A stretch of DNA of 64,000 bases, from IMG/VR virus record IMGVR_UViG_3300010400_000004, positions 10,534 to 74,533 of that record; one strand, given 5' to 3'. Below are positions 16,424 through 48,836 of this stretch, in pieces. Under the pieces are notes generated by a model that did not search any database, was not told the origin of the DNA, and was given only the letters and a program-made list of their open reading frames with translations. The DNA is from a virus. A program made the position numbers and the translations under genes. The number at the start of each line of letters is the position of its first letter. Position 1 is the first letter of the stretch.

Positions 16424-18489
16424 AATCGCGATTTGTTTTCTCCGGTCTCAACGAAGCATTTAATCATGCCGTCCTTTTGTAACACTTCAAGAAACCGGTT
16501 GATTTGTTCGAGTTTGTAACCTCTGAGCAAAAAATCATTCATCGGATTGCTGTTCAACAATCGGGCGAGTTGTGTGAGAGTGCCGCGCCACTCCGTTGCC
16601 TCCGGAGTCTGAGCGAAAAAGTCCTTGAGTTGTTCGAGTAAAATTTCCTTAATCGGAGCTGCCCTGCTGGTCTGGTGTGTTTGGTCAATCAAATGGGCGT
16701 CGTGATACGGCAAATACCCGTATCGACCGTCCCGCGCAATGTAATCGGGCGGAGTCCAGGCGAGGGCATAAGCACAGAGTTGCGGCAATTCCGTCTTGAG
16801 CCTCTTCTGCAATTCGTATCTCTCGGGAAAATCGATTTTATCGGTAGTGCATCGATACACACAGGTTTTCTCCGCCGAAGAGTTATCGAGTGATCCGAGT
16901 ATCCTCGAACTGGTAAAATCCATATTGGCGGTGATGCCAATTCTACCGGCCCACTCAACTGTTACAGGAACCCGGAATTTTTCGTTCACTCGGAATTCTT
17001 GATTCGCTGCCGCCTTTTTCAGCATAGCACTAAACCGGTCGTGAGCACTGAGAGAATTGCCCGGGGTCTCGTCGTCGATCGCCCACAACGGAACGTGATA
17101 GTTTTCTGAGCCAAAGTCGTCGCCCTGCACAATATATTTCGCGGCATCCACGAATCCTCCGACAGTTGCTCCGACAACATGCCGAAGCGCGAAGGTCTTG
17201 CCGCGATTCGCTACACCGAGGATGAAAATATTCTGTCCTGGACGGGGCAATAATTCGTATCCGGAGGTGTAAAAATGCTTATACCATGCAAGGAACCATT
17301 CGAATTGAATCGGCCCGAAAAGCTGTTTGAGGAAATCCAGCACCCACAAATTCTCCGAGTAGGTCTCACTCGGACGCATCACGTTGTTACGCCAAGTGTT
17401 CAGGACTTTCCGATGATTGTATTCGATTAAGCCCGGTGTGCGATACACGAACGGAGCTGCACCGACCACCCGGGCGTTTTCGTGAAGATGAAATAGCGTG
17501 TCTTCGATTTTCTTCTCAGGAATGCCGCAACCTTTCTTGAGATAGATTTTCATCGCTGATTCGTTCACCGATTGATAAATCCCATCTATTTTTCGCCAGT
17601 AAGCTTGCCCATCGTGGTAAATATCTAGCGTTGCTTTTGCGATTGCGCCTTCATTGATCTCTTTGACGAAATCTTTGCCGAGGATTTCCGACCAGGGATA
17701 GAAGGGTTTACTTGCGTGAGCACTGAAGGTAAGCATGCCTTCAGCTTTGATAATGGCAGAAAGCGGACTAACCGATTCGGCAATCCAAAAACTCGGCCCC
17801 TGTGTATCAAGATCAAATGCCGAGGGCCATGAAAAACCTGGGAACCTTTCTTTAATCGCCGCTTCCACCACTTCAAGAGGGATTTCGTTTCCTTCGGGGG
17901 CTTTGAATTTGAACTTTTTGATTGCTTCGACATAGAATGACTGTAGTTGAATTTCACTTACGGCATCGGGCGAACCAAGAACTTTACGCCAAGCCGCTCC
18001 GTTACAGTAAAGACGGGTTGGGTTTTCAAAAGCTGGCGAATCGAGACCCGGAAGTAGATCGAGAGAAAGCCACTTGCGAGCCATCTGAAGAATCCAGACA
18101 GCAAAGTCTGTGGTTTCAACCGCCATCGGACGAGACAATAACCAGACGAGACGGCAATTACCTCCCAAGGATCGTTCGATCCACTGAGGCTTGATGGACA
18201 TGGATGCCACGGCTTCGTCGATTCTATCATCGGGGATTCGGACATCGTAATCGGCCACGAAGGCGTGAATGAACTTGGCGGGGTTATCTTTACTGAGTCT
18301 TTGATTGCAGTTGGCGGGTTCGATGGATGTGTAGAAGTTCCATTTTGTGTTATGAGTTCTGTAAAAAATTTGTCTCTCATTTTTATCCTGTTTTACTTTT
18401 TCGGATGGCATCTGATCTGGTTTGTATTCCCAAGGAATACAGGGGACCAGAACCTTCTCAATTAAATTTCCACAGGCAAAGAACTTCAT
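16402..18489 (-). CDS. Primase-helicase (AEP/RepB-like N-terminus, P-loop helicase C-terminus)
   Basis: FVADYD...ERSLGGNCRLVW; Walker A GVANRGKT; Walker B WAIDDE; NEKF. Confidence 0.75.
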   Translation of the reverse strand: MKFFACGNLIEKVLVPCIPWEYKPDQMPSEKVKQDKNERQIFYRTHNTKWNFYTSIEPANCNQRLSKDNPAKFIHAFVADYDVRIPDDRIDEAVASMSIKPQWIERSLGGNCRLVWLLSRPMAVETTDFAVWILQMARKWLSLDLLPGLDSPAFENPTRLYCNGAAWRKVLGSPDAVSEIQLQSFYVEAIKKFKFKAPEGNEIPLEVVEAAIKERFPGFSWPSAFDLDTQGPSFWIAESVSPLSAIIKAEGMLTFSAHASKPFYPWSEILGKDFVKEINEGAIAKATLDIYHDGQAYWRKIDGIYQSVNESAMKIYLKKGCGIPEKKIEDTLFHLHENARVVGAAPFVYRTPGLIEYNHRKVLNTWRNNVMRPSETYSENLWVLDFLKQLFGPIQFEWFLAWYKHFYTSGYELLPRPGQNIFILGVANRGKTFALRHVVGATVGGFVDAAKYIVQGDDFGSENYHVPLWAIDDETPGNSLSAHDRFSAMLKKAAANQEFRVNEKFRVPVTVEWAGRIGITANMDFTSSRILGSLDNSSAEKTCVYRCTTDKIDFPERYELQKRLKTELPQLCAYALAWTPPDYIARDGRYGYLPYHDAHLIDQTHQTSRAAPIKEILLEQLKDFFAQTPEATEWRGTLTQLARLLNSNPMNDFLLRGYKLEQINRFLEVLQKDGMIKCFVETGENKSRLWIFPKQ

Positions 18490-23294: not shown

Positions 23295-25127
23295 TTATCC
23301 AACGAATGTCAAATGTTTCTTTGCCCGGGTCAGCGCCACGTAGTAAATATTCGCTTCCTCGTCTGACCGCCCAGGCTTGAAAGTCGCCTGGAGAAGAAAT
23401 ACTCGACTCCACTCTAAACCCTTGGCCTTGTGGACACTAGAGAGAACCACAGCGGGTTTCGCGGTCTTGCTGTCGGAGTCTTGGAAAAGGCTGTAAATTC
23501 TTGACTCGATGTCACTTACACTCGAAGCGTCTTGCGCCACTGCCGCGAGGGTTTCAACAGTATCGTTGACCTGGGCGATCTTCGCTTCCGCATTCTTGCC
23601 GACTGCCATCCGTTTGCGTTGCTTTGTCGCCCAAGAGTCGAGCTTACGGAAAAAGTCTGGAACCGATTTCGCCCTGAGTTTCCTCACCGTGTTAACTAGT
23701 TGGGCACCAATGTCCCGGCCTTCAATTCTGGCGGAAACGCCGCGTTTCAGCAAATTCAAGCAGGTGGACATTAAAGGCGCGTTTAAACGGCTGAGGATCG
23801 CGTCCCCGATAACCGCGTGTTCGACGGCGGAGACAACCTCGTCAACGATACCCTCCGGAGCACTCGGGGCAGCGTTGTAATCGGGCACGATTTCAGCCGC
23901 CAGAGCCACTACAGCCTTCGGGCAACGGTAAGTGGTGGTAAGAGACAACTTCGTTGCCGAAAGCCTCTCCTGCATCATCCTCATTCCATCCTGAGCCGCT
24001 CCACGAAACGCATAGATCGCTTGGCGGTCGTCGCCCACTACGCAAATCCGGCCTCCAGGCAAGCACGCCCGAATCGCCATTTCGAGCTGAGGGACATTCA
24101 TGTCCTGGCATTCGTCAACCACGACCAGCGGGAACCTGGGGAAAACCCAATTCATCGCGACTGGCAACCAGACCATATCGTTGAAGCTAATTCGGCCTTC
24201 AACATCTCGCTCTTTGGCCAGTTCCAGGGCGGTGAATGCGACCGAGGCGAGGCGAGCCACTGTCCAGCCGCCGTCTTCAGGGGCTTCACTGGCGGAGAAA
24301 ATACCCTTGTCGTTCGCCAAGTCGATCAGAAGATCAATTGTGGGCGAAATCAGGGTATTCTTGGCGAAAGCCACAAGACGTTCAACGCAACCGGAGACTT
24401 CCTCCGGAATTCCAGGGCAGGCGGCTTCGATCCGGGCCGATTCAACCGATGAGTCGGGCTTTACACCCGGCCAAACGGTTTGAATGTAAGAAAACCCAAG
24501 AGAGTGTTCGGTCCGGATTTCAACTCGCTTGTCCTTGATTTTGCGCTCCGCTTCGATCTGGTTTTTCTTGTTGAAAACGAGATACAAGGCGGAGGACTCC
24601 AGGGCATGCTTGAAAGCTTCTTCGATGGTGGTCGTTTTGCCAGTCCCGGCACGAGCACCGACAACCGCATTGCCAGTGCCCGACGCAAACCAAGCGAAAA
24701 TCGCCTTCTGCTCATCGGACCAAATTCGGGAGGGAGTAGAGGGAATCGAACCCTCTACGCCTGCGCTCAAACTATCAGTGCCAGTCGAGGCACCCGAGAC
24801 GCTTGACGACTGCACAGGCACGGAACCATCCACTCCCACTGAACCGACAACCGATACGTTGGAGTTGTTTGTCTCCTGTGCGATAGAGTGAGTAGTCGCA
24901 CTCGTATCGGTTGTCGAGCCAGTAGTATCTAACGGTTTCTCCCATAGCAGCACCGACCAGTCGCCGGTTTGCTTGTCCTTGTCGCAACTAACGCCCTCTG
25001 CTTTCAGAGCCGCTTTATTCGACCTCCAGGCAACCCAAAAAGCCGGTGTAGGATTCGCCTTGCGGAGATTGCCAACCCTCGTGAGTTTCGGCTCGCTCCA
25101 TTTCAGATTCAGTCCGTCGATCAACAT
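23295..25127 (-). CDS. UvrD/Rep-like SF1 helicase with extra N-terminal domain
   Basis: ARAGTGKT, VDECQD, VGDDRQAIY, TYRCP, HKAKGLEW, YVALTRAK. Confidence 0.92.
   Translation of the reverse strand: MLIDGLNLKWSEPKLTRVGNLRKANPTPAFWVAWRSNKAALKAEGVSCDKDKQTGDWSVLLWEKPLDTTGSTTDTSATTHSIAQETNNSNVSVVGSVGVDGSVPVQSSSVSGASTGTDSLSAGVEGSIPSTPSRIWSDEQKAIFAWFASGTGNAVVGARAGTGKTTTIEEAFKHALESSALYLVFNKKNQIEAERKIKDKRVEIRTEHSLGFSYIQTVWPGVKPDSSVESARIEAACPGIPEEVSGCVERLVAFAKNTLISPTIDLLIDLANDKGIFSASEAPEDGGWTVARLASVAFTALELAKERDVEGRISFNDMVWLPVAMNWVFPRFPLVVVDECQDMNVPQLEMAIRACLPGGRICVVGDDRQAIYAFRGAAQDGMRMMQERLSATKLSLTTTYRCPKAVVALAAEIVPDYNAAPSAPEGIVDEVVSAVEHAVIGDAILSRLNAPLMSTCLNLLKRGVSARIEGRDIGAQLVNTVRKLRAKSVPDFFRKLDSWATKQRKRMAVGKNAEAKIAQVNDTVETLAAVAQDASSVSDIESRIYSLFQDSDSKTAKPAVVLSSVHKAKGLEWSRVFLLQATFKPGRSDEEANIYYVALTRAKKHLTFVG
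24731..24837 (-). ncRNA. tRNA-like (TLD-like) element embedded in frame in the helicase gene
   Basis: Acceptor stem GGGAGTG/TACTCCC; T-arm GAGGG-TTCGATT-CCCTC; long central helix GCCTGTGC/GCGCAGGC. Confidence 0.65.
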
Positions 25128-25133
25128 GGCGCT

Positions 25134-25161
25134 AATATACACGAGACTGAATCACGTTCAA
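25134..25161 (-). promoter_or_regulatory. Promoter TTGAAC-N16-TATATT before the helicase ATG
   Basis: Direct motif match; ATG follows 6 nt after the -10 box. Confidence 0.55.
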
Positions 25162-25235: not shown

Positions 25236-26093
25236 TTAAGCAGATACCGGCTGCACGATATTCCGAATGAATTCCAGCACTTCCGGCGACGTAGGCCGAA
25301 GCGGTGTAGCGACAGGAACCGGTGCCGTAAAAGCGCCATCCGGCAACTTGAATTGCTTCGGCTTCGTCGTCAGTCCGAAGGCATGCGTGTAATATCCGCC
25401 GCGCAGCAATCCCATCAGCCGGTGATAGTTGAAAACGCCCTTGACAGCCTCAGTGTATGCCGATCCCTTGCAAGACCAGAATCCGATGGTGAATTGTTTG
25501 TCTCCGACAGGGAAACCGAAAACCGCTCCGCCGTCGTTGACATGCGCGGGCTTTTCGATTGCCACGAGAAGTTCAACGAGAGGCTCGAATCGACGCATGC
25601 CTTCGCCCTTCTTCAGATTCCACTCTTTGTAATCGAGTGTGCCGCCAGCGGCACGAACCTCTGCTTCGCTATCCACAATTTCACCGCCCATGCCACCCTT
25701 GATTTTCTCGGAAAAACGTTCGCTCACGATGCCGAGAACGTAAATCACGACTGGCGGCAGAGCCGCTTTCTTGATGACGCCTTGCGCTTGATCGATCTCG
25801 GGCGGAGTGTAGAGAATCGTTTCCTTGCCGAAAACAATTGCGCCAGCGGGAAAAGATTTTCCAAGTTCGCCAACTGAATACACGATATTCAATCGCGGGA
25901 GCGTAACGTCCTTGAACCCTGGCAGACGATCTCCGAGCCGGAACGCATTCGCGCCCTGAGTGGCCGGGACAGAGTGAGTGGTTGTGGTTTCGACTTTCAC
26001 GTCAGCGACGGGAGTGTTGACCACTTGCTTTGTTTCCTCTACCACCGGTGCCGGTGCAGAGCCGTTATCATTTCCGAATTTTACTTCAGGCAT
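25236..26093 (-). CDS. Putative ssDNA-binding/recombination protein
   Basis: 285-aa ORF near the DUF2800-like nuclease and PolA. Assigned from context only. Confidence 0.4.
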   Translation of the reverse strand: MPEVKFGNDNGSAPAPVVEETKQVVNTPVADVKVETTTTHSVPATQGANAFRLGDRLPGFKDVTLPRLNIVYSVGELGKSFPAGAIVFGKETILYTPPEIDQAQGVIKKAALPPVVIYVLGIVSERFSEKIKGGMGGEIVDSEAEVRAAGGTLDYKEWNLKKGEGMRRFEPLVELLVAIEKPAHVNDGGAVFGFPVGDKQFTIGFWSCKGSAYTEAVKGVFNYHRLMGLLRGGYYTHAFGLTTKPKQFKLPDGAFTAPVPVATPLRPTSPEVLEFIRNIVQPVSA

Positions 26094-26137
26094 TTTAGTT
26101 TTGTGTTAGTTGTTTGACCGACATTTTCAAATAGTTT

Positions 26138-26242
26138 CGGGGAGCCGGTTTCAGCCGAGTCCCCGGCGACTGTTACGCCGCTTGCCTTACAGGGCATTCG
26201 GGTTTTAGCTCAACCGACTGTAATCGATGAAGCGTTGTCCCC
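26138..26242 (-). ncRNA. Putative structured RNA (multi-stem, possible pseudoknot)
   Basis: CGCTT/AAGCG; TGCC-CTGTAA-GGCA with loop complementary to TTACAG; CGGCG/CGCCG; GGGGA/TCCCC. Confidence 0.5.
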
Positions 26243-26246
26243 AAAT

Positions 26247-26346
26247 TGGCGACAGACGGGGCGTATCGGGTTTGCGCCAGCGGTTTGTCCCGAACCACCG
26301 CTACCAGAGGAAGCTATCCTCGATTGGTCTTTCCTTCCGTCTGTCA
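26247..26346 (-). ncRNA. Putative CCA-terminated multi-hairpin RNA
   Basis: GACAGACGG/CCGTCTGTC closing stem followed by G-CCA; three internal hairpins. Confidence 0.6.
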
Positions 26347-27399
26347 TAAATTGTTCGCTTGATTCTGGATATAAGCCACGAGTCTTTCTGTGTTACAAAT
26401 AATGTCCAAGAAAAACTCTGCGCCACGTTTCGTCTTCAGTTCCGGCCTGGGCAAGTCCCAAATAGACGCTGCGAAGGCGAGTAATTTTTCCCGATCCGGC
26501 GCAAGCATCGCGGCCAATTCGATCGCTTTTCGTTCCGCGATTACCTTTTCCTCTTCGGCCCTTTTCGCAGCCATTTCTGCCTCTGCCTTCGCCCGGGCTT
26601 CGCGTTCGGCCTTCAAAACCAACTCTGCCGCTTCTCGTTGTTTGCGGGCCTCCATTTCCACCTTTGCGAGTGCGGCGAGTTTTTCCGCCTTGAGACGATT
26701 CGCTTCTGCGTCCGCCTTCGCTTGAGCAGTTTTCAAATTGTCAGCGATTTGTTTTTCAAGTCGAATTCTTTCAACTTGAGCTGCACGAACTGCTGCTTCT
26801 TGTTCGATAGCGAGTTTTCTCAGCCGTTCATTTTCGAGACGCTGGGCTTCAAGTCGCTCCGCTTCTATCCGCTTCGCGGTTTCAATCGCTTCACGTTCCG
26901 CTTTTTCCCGTTCGAGTTTCGCGGTGTGCGCGGCAATCGAATCGCGAAGAAGGGCCGAATAATTTTCCTCAGTCAAATCTGCAAGGTCGATGACGACCGG
27001 AGCGGAGAGATACGGACTCAATTCAGCGGTTCGCGATTCTCGGACCCCGGTTCGAATTCGCTCAGTTTCCCGCTCCGCAAAAGTTTCCTGCAACAGCAAA
27101 CGTTCTTCAAGAGGTTCGAGGATTTTCAGCAGTTCATTCTTTCCGCCGTCAATCTTCCGACTTTCCTCAAGAACGCTTTCCTTCAGCTCTCGGTGTTTGT
27201 GGACGATCGCAATCCGGAGGTTTTTGATCGTAAGACGAGTTGCCCGGGCCAGTTTCATTTCTGCCACCTGGGAAACATCAGTCACCGTCAACGTCTCCGC
27301 CGTGGTCTTCAGTTTCTCCGCCTGGGATTTAAAGTCGTCCCACACCACGAGCTGCTTCATCCGGGCTTCCGGCAATGAATCTACAATTTCAATTTCCAT
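26344..27399 (-). CDS. Coiled-coil hypothetical protein of the replication/recombination module
   Basis: Long E/K/R/A-rich helical C-terminal half. Confidence 0.6.
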   Translation of the reverse strand: MEIEIVDSLPEARMKQLVVWDDFKSQAEKLKTTAETLTVTDVSQVAEMKLARATRLTIKNLRIAIVHKHRELKESVLEESRKIDGGKNELLKILEPLEERLLLQETFAERETERIRTGVRESRTAELSPYLSAPVVIDLADLTEENYSALLRDSIAAHTAKLEREKAEREAIETAKRIEAERLEAQRLENERLRKLAIEQEAAVRAAQVERIRLEKQIADNLKTAQAKADAEANRLKAEKLAALAKVEMEARKQREAAELVLKAEREARAKAEAEMAAKRAEEEKVIAERKAIELAAMLAPDREKLLAFAASIWDLPRPELKTKRGAEFFLDIICNTERLVAYIQNQANNL

Positions 27400-37049: not shown

Positions 37050-39511
37050 AATGAACGGCGGGTTGAATTTTCACCTGGGAAGCACGAACAGTGGATAACC
37101 ATTCGAGTTGCTCTATCGGACGATGAGTCACCGTGGAGCAAGTCGATCCATCCGGCCACTGCCAGATAACCCGGCACAAAGTTTTTTCACGCAGAAAACG
37201 GATAATCTGAAAATCGAGCTTCACGTTTCGGCGGAATATTGCGGGACTAGGAGGTCTTCCGATTGGCTTTTTCATTTCGATGATTTATTTCGGTTTCGAT
37301 TGCGTTGGCCTGGGCGATAAGCGGAACGACGACGGTGATGATGAAATCTTGTCGCAAGCTCTCGATCGCGAAGGTGGGAATGATCCGGTTAACTCCCCGG
37401 ATTCGTTTCTCCGCCCGGAGCTTCGCCCGCTTCAGGCGGTCGATCGGCAGCCGAGACATCCGACTGGCGAGTTTCGTTTCGAGTGTCTTCGGCGTCTGTG
37501 TCGAGGTGTAATAAGTCCACCGTGCCCGATGGCAGGTCCGACGAAAAGTTCCCGTGATCCGTTTCTGACCCAGTAATATTTCCGTCGCTGTTTCCCGTGG
37601 CATGTGATCCATGTCCAAGTTTTGTTTTATCATAGCAATATCCGCGTGTTTCAAGTTCAGGTGTTCGTGGTAGAATTCTTCCGCACCGGCATACGAAGTT
37701 GTTCGGGTCTGCCTGCAACTTCAGCCAGAGCGGTTCTCCGATTTTCAGCGGTTCGAGTCCATTGACGTGTCGTTTTGGGCGAGGCATATTTGAATTGCTT
37801 TCCAGCTCTCAGGAGAAATTCAATTTCTGATTCGCTGGGGGCTTCGTTGATTAGTTGTCTGAGGCCAATGTTACGCATTGACGATGACTCCTTCGTAAGC
37901 GTTGACGATCGAGGCCGCTTCGTCCGGAGTGAGGCTGTCACCAGCTCCGAATTTTTTCGCCGTTCCGAAGTCGATAGTCAGCGAACCGACAATACGCATG
38001 ACTTTGTAAGATTCCTGAACGTTGCTGAGTTTCTTGGTGAAGTCGTCGGGATTCGACCGAAGCAATGTGATTTTGATTTGTTTGTTTCTCATGTTTGGTT
38101 TTGTTTTTGTTCGTTTACAAATTTCCTATACCGGGCGCGATAAGAAAAATCATCTGCGCCGTTCTCGACATACCGATGACAATTCGGACATCGACAATAC
38201 CGGGCTACACCAAAAAGTTTCATCTCTGTTGCGTGGCTCTCACCTCTACCGATTAGTTGCAGGCACACGCTGCATTCGAGTGCCTGGATTTGTAACTGTT
38301 GAAAGGTGAGTCGCACAACTTCAATATTTGGTTGTGTCGTCGGGCATCGTGCAAATCCCCACCGATATGATAACCGAGACCACGATTATCCAGAACAGGC
38401 GGAAGATTTCGAGTTCGATATTCATATTCAAAATGTCCAGTCGTCGCCGGAAATTGTCGGCATGCGATTGGCCGAGGTAACGTTGGCGGAAAAGTTCCAC
38501 CAGTCTTCGATGGCACGTTTGGCGACGGCAAGCCTGGTGAAATATCGCTGGCTATCGGGATTGAGGGGGTCGTAATTTGGATTTTCGAAAAATTCCCGGA
38601 ACTGTTTGATGGCGGCGATTTTATTCTCAGGCCGAATGTTCCCCAAGGTGGTGACGAACGGTGCCATTGCCTCGAAAAACCTCGCAACCTCCGGATCGAG
38701 GGTCGGTGTTCGGATTACGTCCAGTTCGAAATTCTGAAGGCCGAGCTTTGCGGCGACGATGGCGTGGACTTCGGCGAGTGTGAGTGTGATTTTCATTGGC
38801 GAGCCTTTCGAACACTGACGAGGTTTTCCGCCGTGGCCACTCCAGGCGTGCCGAAACGACCGCCCATATTCAGGGCGACGTAGCCGGGTGAAATGATTCG
38901 TGCAGTGCCCGTCTTCGGCTTGTATTCGACTCCAGAGCGACCGATGCCAGCGGGGACGAGGATTGTGACACGATCGCCTGGGCGAATCGTCTGAAGCAAT
39001 TCTGCGGCGTTTCTCACTTGGCACCTCCGAAAGAAAACCGAGTTGCGCTTCCGTCGATGCCCGTCCAATTCTGTTGTCGGCACCAGACGAAAAGGTCTCC
39101 CACGTTATCGAAAACCGGACTGACCCGACTGTCATAGTTCAGGTGGGAATTGCCCACGAACAGAAAAGACCCGAGCTTGCGAGTGTTCGCGCAGCGGCAT
39201 TGAACCGCTACCTGGGCGGTTGTGCCTGGGCGATGAACCTTGCGGGGCGTTTGATCGATGATGAAGCCATTCACTTGGCACCCCCGTTGACGCCGCAGGC
39301 GGCGAGAAAAATGTTGCGGTTGAATCGCGGATTGGCGTCCGCGAAGGTCGCCGCCAGGGAAAACGCAGTCATGCGGATTGCGTTCTGTCCCTCAGGGGAG
39401 GACTGATTCGAGTTGAATGCTGTTTTGATCGCTGCCGCCACTGCTACGAAGTCTTTTATGCTCATAATTTTTTTTTGTTTTGTTGTCCGCCTTTATTGGC
39501 TGACTGGTGTT

Positions 39512-42582: not shown

Positions 42583-42741
42583 GGTAACTTCTACCGGGGA
42601 CCTCGGTAGGTAGGGACAATCGCTCCTACATATATTCTTCCCAATTTAATCTAAAAGTAGTAGTAGTAGTAGTAAGGGCGCGGGTCGTCCCCAAAAAGGA
42701 CCGATTCTCCCTACCTACCAATATCCCCAGGCAAAGTTACC
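42583..42741. repeat. 45-bp imperfect inverted repeat around an (AGT)6-containing spacer at the strand switch; candidate origin/control region
   Basis: Arms 42583-42627 and 42697-42741 align without gaps at 36/45 positions. Confidence 0.75.
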
Positions 42742-48393: not shown

Positions 48394-48471
48394 TGCGGGC
48401 GGCTGGTGTGAATCAGGAGTCGCCTCATAAGCTTGCTGTTGAAACGGGTTCAACTCCCGTGCCCGCAACCA
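48394..48471 (+). tRNA. tRNA-Met-like (CAT) with mispaired anticodon stem
   Basis: TGCGGGC/GCCCGCA; loop CTCATAA; T-arm ACGGG-TTCAACT-CCCGT; ACCA end. Confidence 0.65.
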
Positions 48472-48639: not shown

Positions 48640-48711
48640 AGGGGTCTGGTGTAAATGGAACACGCCGGGAGAATTCCCGGGGATGGTCATCTGAAGGGCC
48701 GACCCCTGCCA
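48640..48711 (+). ncRNA. tRNA-shaped RNA lacking a normal anticodon loop and T-loop
   Basis: AGGGGTC/GACCCCT followed by GCCA; D-arm GTGT/ACAC; CCGGG-AGAATT-CCCGG. Confidence 0.65.
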
Positions 48712-48836
48712 GTTGTCAGCAGAGTGCGATACCAACCGGAATAGGCCCCGGTCGTTGCAACGAGTTCCTACCCTATGTTCAGACGCCATAGGGAATCAGG
48801 AATGTGGCTCAGTTCCACGGTCTCACTCTGCAACCA
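48712..48836 (+). ncRNA. CCA-terminated ~120-nt multi-stem RNA
   Basis: GCAGAGTG/CACTCTGC closing stem; four internal hairpins; ends AACCA followed by ATTTT like the neighbouring tRNAs. Confidence 0.6.

What the first reader, a model, noticed from the sequence alone, without database searches (positions are those of the whole stretch)
26247..26346. Second CCA-ending non-tRNA with possible kissing loops, in the replication operon
Seen: the element starts at the stop codon of 26344-27399. A 9-bp stem GACAGACGG/CCGTCTGTC is followed by G-CCA-ATTT. Inside are three hairpins (ACCA..GAGGA/TCCTC-TGGT, AGCGGT/ACCGCT, GGCG/CGCC), and the last two loops contain complementary TCGGG and CCCGA. Inference: the loop-loop contact could mimic the tRNA elbow. 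With 48640, 48712 and 24731 this suggests a repertoire of tRNA-mimic RNAs across the genome.
Basis: partly seen in the sequence, partly recalled or inferred. Interest (0 to 1): 0.7.

Follow-up and report, generated by a model that had tools for sequence, protein, structure and literature searches.

The report
tRNA-shaped RNA between phage genes
A 99-base RNA fold that copies the stem, CCA tail and probably the corner of a tRNA, but has no anticodon, sits between two replication genes of an uncultured soil phage. It most likely tells host tRNA-trimming enzymes where to cut the long message, though no RNA data show this yet.

Summary
On the minus strand, window 26345-26247 is a 99-nt fold. Its 9-bp closing stem begins inside the stop codon of the upstream gene and is followed by G-CCA-AUUU.

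A stem plus NCCA alone occurs at chance frequency in this 74.5-kb phage genome. Comparison is what makes the element real. Four related uncultured phages hold five more folds of 71-75 nt in the same gap, between a coiled-coil gene and an OB-fold, SSB-like gene. A fifth relative has a similar fold without CCA. The six share almost no sequence, but all have a G-C first pair and a purine-CCA tail. Two homologous pairs show compensatory stem changes, and one phage carries two elements in tandem.

Three are cloverleaves. Their last arm stacks on the closing stem (11-13 bp, the tRNA ruler), and the loops of arms 2 and 3 are complementary with one covarying pair. None has an anticodon loop or T-loop, and ARAGORN and Rfam find nothing.

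Most likely it is a tRNA-like punctuation signal. Host RNase P and 3' tRNA-processing enzymes would cut it and free the SSB-like message. This scan has noted tRNA-like spacers in many other phages. This one is a different, kissing-loop form.

The parts
26247..26345 (-). The 99-nt tRNA-like element, from G+1 of the closing stem to the A of CCA
26337..26345 (-). 5' strand of the 9-bp closing (acceptor-like) stem. Its first two bases are the GA of the upstream stop codon TGA (26346-26344). U-1 (26346) can also pair with G26250.
26251..26259 (-). 3' strand of the closing stem
26303..26328 (-). Arm 1: a 4+5-bp hairpin with a 3-nt bulge and a 5-nt loop. Pair probability is 0.8-1.0 in the ensemble.
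26279..26302 (-). Arm 2: a 6-bp stem with a 12-nt loop that holds UCGGG (26293-26289)
26260..26278 (-). Arm 3: a 4-bp stem with an 11-nt loop that holds CCCGA (26270-26266). It abuts the closing stem with no linker, giving a 13-bp coaxial stack.
26247..26250 (-). Purine discriminator G plus CCA (an RCCA tail)
   Evidence: The RCCA-RNase P RNA pairing is described in PMC11143913.
26243..26246 (-). AUUU trailer, the same as after the phage's own tRNA-Ala, tRNA-Pro and the 118-nt RNA of the tRNA cluster
26125..26242 (-). Second structured segment of the same intergenic region. It has no CCA and lies next to the leader. The fold covered 26085-26250, which also includes the CCA trailer, the CA-rich leader and the first codons.
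   Evidence: z = -3.5
26094..26124 (-). Unstructured CA-rich leader without a Shine-Dalgarno motif, in front of the downstream gene. It is conserved in related phages.
26344..27399 (-). Upstream gene: a 351-aa coiled-coil protein with no Pfam or PHROG family
25236..26093 (-). Downstream gene: a 285-aa OB-fold protein, probably a single-strand-DNA-binding protein (weak structural evidence)

Best explanation
The element is a cis-acting, anticodon-less tRNA mimic inside the long minus-strand replication-operon transcript.

Shown: its acceptor-like stem (G1-C pair, purine discriminator, encoded CCA) stacks on arm 3. The loops of arms 2 and 3 can pair and so form a corner.

Inferred: this shape is read by the host's tRNA-maturation enzymes. 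RNase P would cut at the 5' end of the closing stem, at the last base or bases of the upstream stop codon. A 3' endonuclease (RNase E or Z type) plus exonucleases would trim back to the CCA. That would detach the message of the downstream SSB-like gene from the upstream cistrons. The two messages could then have different stability and translation. A roughly 99-nt CCA-ended RNA would be released as a by-product.
For: 1. Positional recurrence. The same gene junction in related phage contigs holds five more CCA-ended folds: L085:1821-1894, L086:1736-1806, L114:141-214, L114:221-295 (two in tandem in L114) and L003:3653-3726. blastn finds no similarity to the window's element. Per-region chance of such a fold is 0.008-0.09.

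2. Covariation. There are 3 compensatory pairs between L086 and L114 element 1 and 5 between L003 and L114 element 2. By eye, the window and L085 closing stems differ at three positions with both sides changed.

3. RNase P determinants. All six elements have G+1 paired to C, a purine discriminator and CCA. The closing stem plus arm 3 stack is 13, 12 and 11 bp in the three cloverleaves. The known ruler is 12 bp, and the RCCA tail is known to pair with RNase P RNA (PMC11143913).

4. Size. Five of the six are 71-75 nt, the size of a tRNA.

5. Trailer. CCA-AUUU also follows the phage's own tRNAs.

6. Precedent. RNase P cuts phage M3 RNA, the P1/P7 C4 RNA precursor, plant-virus tRNA-like structures and the T4 gene 32 mRNA (PMC11143913). 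A pseudoknot aptamer is cut only if it carries a 3' RCCA (PMC12710915 abstract). Plant mitochondrial t-elements define mRNA ends (PMC1920247).

7. Host dependence. The phage encodes no CCA-adding enzyme, Ro60 or RtcB, so host enzymes would have to act.
Against: - No RNA ends are known. Sequencing runs could not be reached.
- There is no T-loop or D-loop sequence, so whether the kissing loops give the stacking surface that the RNase P S-domain reads is unknown.
- One relative (L084) has a similar fold without CCA. The window's own leader-proximal structure also lacks CCA.
- Only six sequences from three or four independent lineages are available, and two of the three groups have different interiors.
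- The host and its RNase set are unknown.
- U-1 can pair with the discriminator, which could shift or weaken RNase P cleavage.
Confidence: 0.45

Rival explanations
1. Translational operator of the SSB-like gene, as in T4 gene 32. A folded, pseudoknotted element nucleates cooperative binding of the gene's own product along the unstructured leader and shuts off translation when free protein accumulates.
For: - The downstream product is an OB-fold protein. Its best structural matches include phiC31 gp3 (Z 6.5), T4 gp32 (Z 5.0) and RB69 gp32 (Z 4.2).
- In L003, L085, L086 and L114 the CCA-ended fold directly abuts a roughly 30-nt unstructured CA-rich leader.
- The T4 operator is a pseudoknot 67 nt upstream followed by an unstructured A+U-rich tract (PMC3014915).
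Against: - In the window the focal element is about 120 nt upstream of the leader, and another structure lies between them.
- This model does not explain the G-C first pair, the purine-CCA tail, the tRNA size or the tandem copy in L114.
- More distant phages keep the leader but have no fold.
- The structural Z-scores are middling, so the SSB assignment is weak.
Confidence: 0.15
2. Passive mRNA stabiliser or insulator. A very stable multi-branch fold placed right after the stop codon blocks 3'-to-5' exonucleases for the upstream message, or shields the 5' end of the downstream message, without any specific cleavage.
For: - High stability (about -41 kcal/mol, z -3.5).
- The fold starts flush with the stop codon in the window and in L085.
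- L084 has a comparable fold without CCA.
Against: A barrier needs only a stable stem. It does not explain purine-CCA in 6 of 7 folds, the 11-13-bp stack, the loop-loop covariation or the tRNA-like size.
Confidence: 0.13
3. Trans-acting tRNA mimic. After excision the CCA-ended RNA is the product that matters. It would act as a decoy or sponge for a host factor that reads the top half of tRNA, such as a tRNA-directed defence toxin, the CCA-adding enzyme or a sensor of uncharged tRNA.
For: - The tRNA-like top half and encoded CCA.
- The same genome keeps other conserved CCA-ended non-tRNAs in its tRNA cluster.
Against: - There is no anticodon loop, so it cannot decoy anticodon nucleases.
- The interior is not conserved between lineages, which is unusual for a specific ligand-binding RNA.
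- The position is conserved relative to genes, which fits a cis role.
Confidence: 0.12
4. Decayed tRNA gene or unusual decoding tRNA (for example of the tRNA-Sec or allo-tRNA type with a long acceptor stem).
For: - The 9+4 = 13-bp acceptor/T-type stack equals that of tRNA-Sec.
- 8/4 and 9/3 tRNAs exist in soil bacteria and phages (PMC5389517).
Against: - No 7-nt anticodon loop with U33 and no T-loop. ARAGORN is negative and no Rfam tRNA, tRNA-Sec or tmRNA match appears even at E <= 10.
- Compensatory changes argue against a decaying pseudogene.
Confidence: 0.05

Closest known systems
t-elements of plant mitochondria and the mitochondrial tRNA-punctuation model (Forner et al. 2007, PMC1920247)
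   Same: Both are tRNA-like folds without a decoding function. Both sit at the borders of cistrons in polycistronic transcripts and are thought to act as cis signals for RNase P and RNase Z.
   Different: This one is in a DNA phage of a bacterium. It has an encoded CCA and no canonical T-arm, and its corner is apparently made by a loop-loop helix. No cleavage has been shown here.
Non-tRNA substrates of bacterial RNase P in phages: phi80 M3 RNA, the P1/P7 C4 antisense RNA precursor and the T4 gene 32 mRNA (review PMC11143913)
   Same: These are phage RNAs that RNase P recognises through an acceptor-like helix and, for the model substrates described in that review, a 3' RCCA. One of them also lies on the mRNA of a phage SSB gene.
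   Different: There is no sequence or fold relationship. The element here is a full cloverleaf-like four-way junction, and cleavage is only predicted.
T4 gene 32 translational operator (PMC3014915, PMC535899)
   Same: Both have a folded, pseudoknot-type element followed by an unstructured leader in front of a phage ssDNA-binding-protein gene.
   Different: The T4 element is a small H-type pseudoknot without an acceptor stem or CCA. In the window the focal element is not adjacent to the leader.
3'-terminal tRNA-like structures of plant RNA viruses (TYMV type)
   Same: Both are viral RNA folds that end in CCA, use tertiary pairing to imitate tRNA shape, and (for TYMV) are cut by RNase P in vitro (PMC11143913).
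   Different: The plant-virus structures are genome-terminal, aminoacylated, have an anticodon-like loop and a pseudoknotted acceptor stem. Rfam models do not match here.
tRNA top-half mimics (acceptor stem plus canonical T-arm) noted by this scan between early genes of many other phages (AI notes, unchecked)
   Same: Both lie between phage genes, have an acceptor-like stem often followed by CCA, and are proposed to serve as processing signals.
   Different: Those have a canonical T-loop and no other arms. The element here has three arms, no T-loop, and a kissing-loop corner.

Membership tests
Canonical tRNA (Rfam RF00005) | Detected by a tRNA covariance model or ARAGORN | tested here: not met
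   ARAGORN finds only tRNA-Ala and tRNA-Pro. Rfam gives no hit at 26247-26346 at gathering score or at E <= 10, and none on the relatives' elements.
Canonical tRNA (Rfam RF00005) | 7-nt anticodon loop with U33, and a T-loop (UUCRANY) | tested here: not met
   Loops are 5, 12 and 11 nt in the window and 4-8 nt in L003 and L114.
Canonical tRNA (Rfam RF00005) | Acceptor stem, unpaired discriminator and 3' CCA | tested here: met
   A 9-bp stem, G and CCA are present. The stem is longer than 7 bp.
tRNA-Sec / allo-tRNA (9/4, 9/3, 8/4 forms) | 12-13-bp acceptor plus T stack | tested here: met
   9 + 4 = 13 bp.
tRNA-Sec / allo-tRNA (9/4, 9/3, 8/4 forms) | Functional anticodon arm, long variable arm, and a match to RF01852 | tested here: not met
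   No 7-nt anticodon loop is present, and RF01852 does not hit the element.
RNase P substrate (bacterial type) | G+1:C+72-type first pair and a 3' RCCA that can pair with the GGU of the P15 loop | tested here: met
   Present in all six CCA-ended elements. The rule comes from PMC11143913.
RNase P substrate (bacterial type) | Coaxial acceptor/T-type helix of about 12 bp, ending in a T-loop/D-loop corner | tested here: inconclusive
   The stack is 13, 12 and 11 bp. The corner would have to come from the loop-loop helix, and its geometry is untested.
RNase P substrate (bacterial type) | Actual cleavage by RNase P | not testable with these tools
   This needs an enzyme assay or end mapping.
t-element-type processing signal | tRNA-like fold at a cistron border of a polycistronic transcript | tested here: met
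   The element lies between two same-strand genes in a long minus-strand gene run, starting at the stop codon.
t-element-type processing signal | Transcript ends map to the borders of the element | not testable with these tools
T4 gene 32-type operator | Structured nucleation element directly followed by an unstructured leader of an SSB gene | tested here: inconclusive
   This holds for L003, L085, L086 and L114. In the window the focal element is about 120 nt from the leader. The SSB assignment rests on Z 4-6.5.
Plant-virus tRNA-like structure (Rfam TLS families) | Match to an Rfam TLS model, and a genome-terminal position | tested here: not met
   No Rfam hit. The element is internal to a dsDNA phage operon.
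Intrinsic terminator | GC-rich hairpin followed by a U tract | tested here: not met
   No minus-strand terminator-like site is found at the element. Only three U follow the CCA.
Y RNA / YrlA | A partner Ro60 (TROVE) gene | tested here: not met
   PF05731 is absent from the phage genome. A host-encoded Ro cannot be excluded.

The most novel reading that the evidence does not exclude
This phage lineage keeps a fast-evolving set of anticodon-less, CCA-ended cloverleaf RNAs whose tRNA corner is built from a kissing-loop helix. After excision from the replication-operon transcript they accumulate and act in trans as tRNA decoys. They would occupy or mislead a host factor that reads the acceptor/elbow half of tRNA, for example a tRNA-directed defence enzyme. 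In addition, RNase P cleavage inside the stop codon would turn the upstream message into a non-stop mRNA as a built-in down-regulation switch.
Probability: 0.12. Interest if true: 0.85.

Novelty: new variant of a known kind. Interest (0 to 1): 0.6.

Why it matters
tRNA-like folds are known to punctuate transcripts in mitochondria. They are also known as isolated RNase P substrates in a few classic phages. I found no paper describing conserved, encoded-CCA cloverleaf mimics as intercistronic elements of DNA phages.

If cleavage is confirmed, it would show that phages recruit the host tRNA-maturation machinery to set the stoichiometry of replication proteins. It would also give a natural example of a tRNA elbow built from a kissing-loop helix. 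That is directly useful for understanding what RNase P, RNase Z and CCA-adding enzymes really read. Finally, it would add an unannotated RNA class to phage genome annotation.

Tried and rejected
- Rfam at gathering and at lenient thresholds, on the window and on five relatives, found nothing at any element.
- ARAGORN on all loci found no tRNA at the junction.
- blastn and tblastn against 50,697 deposited phages found no match. No cultured relative exists.
- blastn of the element against 111 related loci found no sequence similarity.
- IMG/VR pattern scans were uninformative. The window's two loop motifs gave 12 hits, all unrelated simple hairpins. The L086/L114 motif returned only L114's own contig.
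- Scans of GTDB genome contigs found nothing with the upstream protein. With the downstream protein they gave one distant hit in a Peribacteraceae MAG, which is not informative for the host.
The contigs of the closest protein relatives could therefore not be fetched, for example P0123, which is 90% identical to the downstream protein.
- Genome-wide scans for stem plus purine-CCA in this genome and in G001 showed no enrichment and no further convincing non-coding case. G001 17706-17805 lies in an ORF, and window 39298-39356 is antisense to a small ORF.
- No phage-encoded CCA-adding enzyme, Ro60 or RtcB was found.
- The intrinsic-terminator and promoter readings were rejected.
- The tRNA-Sec/allo-tRNA reading was rejected for lack of an anticodon loop.

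Full report
WHAT IS THERE

The window is part of a complete 74.5-kb phage record with terminal repeats. Genes from about 42.5 kb down to about 21.8 kb all run on the minus strand. They encode replication and recombination functions: two helicases, an HNH endonuclease and a PD-(D/E)XK exonuclease.

The finding lies in the 250-nt gap (26094-26343) between two genes. The upstream gene encodes a 351-aa coiled-coil protein with no family (26344-27399). The downstream gene encodes a 285-aa protein (25236-26093).

Read on the minus strand, the GA of the stop codon TGA opens a perfect 9-bp stem. Its 3' strand is followed by G, CCA and AUUU. Inside are three all-Watson-Crick hairpins with no linkers between them or before the closing strand. 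The loops of the second and third hold UCGGG and CCCGA.

IS IT MORE THAN CHANCE?

The fold is unusually stable: -41 kcal/mol, z = -3.5, and no shuffle folds as well. But a stem of 7 bp or more followed by N-CCA occurs at about the chance rate in the genome, 20 against 14 +/- 4. For stems of 8 bp or more the count is 4 against 4 +/- 2. The 5-nt loop complementarity alone has P of about 0.04. The case therefore rests on comparison.

RELATIVES

The phage has no deposited relative. Homologues of the two flanking proteins are common in soil metagenomes and IMG/VR.

- In every close relative whose junction is available, the gap holds a stable multi-branch fold.
- In four of five relatives at least one fold ends in purine-CCA directly after its closing stem. 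These are L085:1821-1894 (74 nt, also starting in the stop codon), L086:1736-1806 (71 nt), L114:141-214 and L114:221-295 (74 and 75 nt, in tandem, each followed by AUUU) and L003:3653-3726 (74 nt).
- L084 has a comparable 80-nt fold without CCA.
- blastn finds no similarity to the window's element.
- Shuffles of each intergenic region produce such a fold in only 0.8-9% of trials.
- More distant phages keep the downstream gene and its CA-rich leader but have no fold. The element is therefore a feature of one clade.

COVARIATION

L086 and L114 element 1 are 72% identical and show 3 compensatory pairs. L003 and L114 element 2 are 55% identical and show 5 compensatory pairs in the closing stem and arm 2. 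Their third arms have entirely different sequences yet both pair.

The window and L085 closing stems share GACA.../...UGUC and differ at three inner positions with both sides changed (read).

G-U pairs occur on the sense strand only. This points to RNA of the operon strand.

tRNA LIKENESS

- All six CCA-ended elements start with a G paired to C and have a purine discriminator before CCA.
In each, arm 3 abuts the closing stem, giving stacks of 13, 12 and 11 bp.
- The acceptor/T stack of tRNA is 12 bp and serves as the ruler for RNase P. The RCCA tail pairs with the P15 loop of RNase P RNA (PMC11143913).
- The loops of arms 2 and 3 are complementary in all three: UCGGG/CCCGA, GUUA/UAAC and GUCA/UGAC. 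The last two differ by a compensatory double change. Individual P values are 0.04, 0.10 and 0.04.
- In the window the same two pentamers pair in the nested MFE as well. The pairing itself is therefore robust, but its topology (kissing or nested) is not settled by energy.
- Both arm stems are retained together with the loop match in three divergent sequences, which favours the kissing form.
- L086 and L114 element 1, and L085, have other interiors. They still show complementarity between a hairpin loop and a segment just 5' of the closing strand.
- None of the elements has a 7-nt anticodon loop, a T-loop or a D-loop. ARAGORN and Rfam (tRNA, tRNA-Sec, tmRNA, viral TLS families) are silent.

CONTEXT

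The downstream protein folds with good confidence (pLDDT 82) into an OB-fold-type beta structure. Its best matches are phiC31 gp3 (Z 6.5), a BRCA2 OB domain (5.4), T4 gp32 (5.0), RB69 gp32 (4.2) and many other ssDNA-binding proteins. The scores are middling, so 'SSB-like' is a reasonable but weak call.

Its roughly 31-nt leader is CA-rich and unstructured, and it is conserved. Shine-Dalgarno motifs are not enriched before this phage's ORFs: 8 of 80 against 10 +/- 3 at random sites. The host therefore probably initiates translation without them.

The rest of the window's gap is also strongly structured but has no CCA. The CCA-AUUU junction is the same as after the phage's own tRNA-Ala, tRNA-Pro and a 118-nt RNA in the tRNA cluster. 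The genome encodes no CCA-adding enzyme, Ro60 or RtcB.

MECHANISM

Shown: a conserved, stable, sense-strand RNA fold with the acceptor-end determinants of a bacterial RNase P substrate, a tRNA-length helical stack and a probable loop-loop corner. It is placed exactly at a cistron border.

Inferred: host RNase P cuts at the base of the stem and 3' tRNA-processing nucleases trim to the CCA. The SSB-like message is thereby released from the upstream part of the operon transcript.

One corollary is also inference. In the window and in L085 the cut would fall within the stop codon, leaving the upstream message without a complete stop.

Precedents:
- RNase P cuts phi80 M3 RNA, the P1/P7 C4 RNA precursor, plant-virus tRNA-like structures and the T4 gene 32 mRNA (PMC11143913, citing Mans et al. 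1990).
- A pseudoknot aptamer is cut only when it carries a 3' RCCA (PMC12710915 abstract).
- Plant mitochondrial t-elements define mRNA ends (PMC1920247).

I put this reading at about 0.45.

Rivals:
- A gene-32-type autoregulatory operator (0.15). It fits the relatives better than the window, and it does not explain RCCA.
- A passive stabiliser (0.13).
- A trans-acting decoy (0.12).
- A decayed or exotic tRNA (0.05).

These readings are not mutually exclusive.

COMPARISON WITH WHAT IS KNOWN, AND NOVELTY

The element works like a t-element or an RNase P model substrate, but it belongs to no described family. Literature searches found no description of conserved intercistronic tRNA mimics in DNA phages.

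Earlier notes of this scan report tRNA 'top-half' mimics with canonical T-arms between early genes of many other phages (unchecked AI notes). The present element differs in having three arms, no T-loop and a kissing-loop corner. I class it as a new variant of a known kind.

LIMITS

- Only six elements from three or four lineages are available.
- There are no RNA data, and the host is unknown.

Noticed in passing
window 24731-24837 (minus strand), inside ORF 23295-25142: A block of about 110 nt in the linker of the UvrD-like helicase gene is about 90% identical to the relative G001, although the flanking proteins are only 60-70% identical. It holds a canonical T-arm (5-bp stem, UUCGAUU loop) with one compensatory G-C to A-U change. 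The ORF stays open in both genomes. It looks like an RNA element embedded in coding sequence.
   Followed up: partly
window 48719-48836 (+): A 118-nt RNA right after tRNA-Pro has an 8-bp closing stem, several hairpins, and ends in AA-CCA-AUUUU. It is conserved in G001 (L112:1756-1874) with 4 compensatory pairs. From memory, it recalls the stable non-tRNA RNAs of the T4 tRNA cluster.
   Followed up: partly
window 48394-48471 (+): A tRNA-like gene that ARAGORN misses. It has a 7-bp acceptor stem, a T-arm, A-CCA, and an anticodon loop that reads CAU (Met/Ile type) by eye. It gives only a weak tRNA-Sec model hit (E 0.9). G001 keeps it, with two G-U pairs in the acceptor stem.
   Followed up: partly
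window 48640-48711 (+): A 72-nt cloverleaf with a 7-bp acceptor stem and G-CCA but only a 6-nt middle loop. At the same place G001 has a much longer (about 165-nt) stretch that also ends in a stem plus A-CCA.
   Followed up: no
window 26125-26242 (minus strand): The second part of the same intergenic region is also unusually stable (z -3.5 for a fold of 26085-26250) but has no CCA. It occupies the position that CCA-ended folds hold in L003, L085, L086 and L114.
   Followed up: partly
window 26094-26124 and loci L116-L142: A CA-rich, Shine-Dalgarno-free leader precedes the OB-fold gene in about 30 otherwise distant phages. Across this genome SD-like motifs are not enriched before ORFs: 8 of 80 against 10 +/- 3 at random sites. 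This suggests a host that does not rely on SD pairing.
   Followed up: partly
window 25236-26093 (protein P0121): This protein has no Pfam family. Its best structural match is the recombination directionality factor gp3 of phage phiC31 (Z 6.5), followed by OB-fold ssDNA-binding proteins including T4 and RB69 gp32.
   Followed up: partly
window 42608-42720 (+): A 9-bp stem closing 113 nt and followed by A-CCA-AUAU lies in the divergent intergenic region between the leftward and rightward gene blocks. That region also holds a run of GTA repeats. The fold z is only -2.1.
   Followed up: no
L003:3499-3708: In the relative G001 a 69-codon ORF that overlaps the upstream stop (ATGA) fills the first 150 nt of the gap. 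Its 3' end overlaps the CCA-ended fold. Whether it is a real gene was not tested.
   Followed up: no
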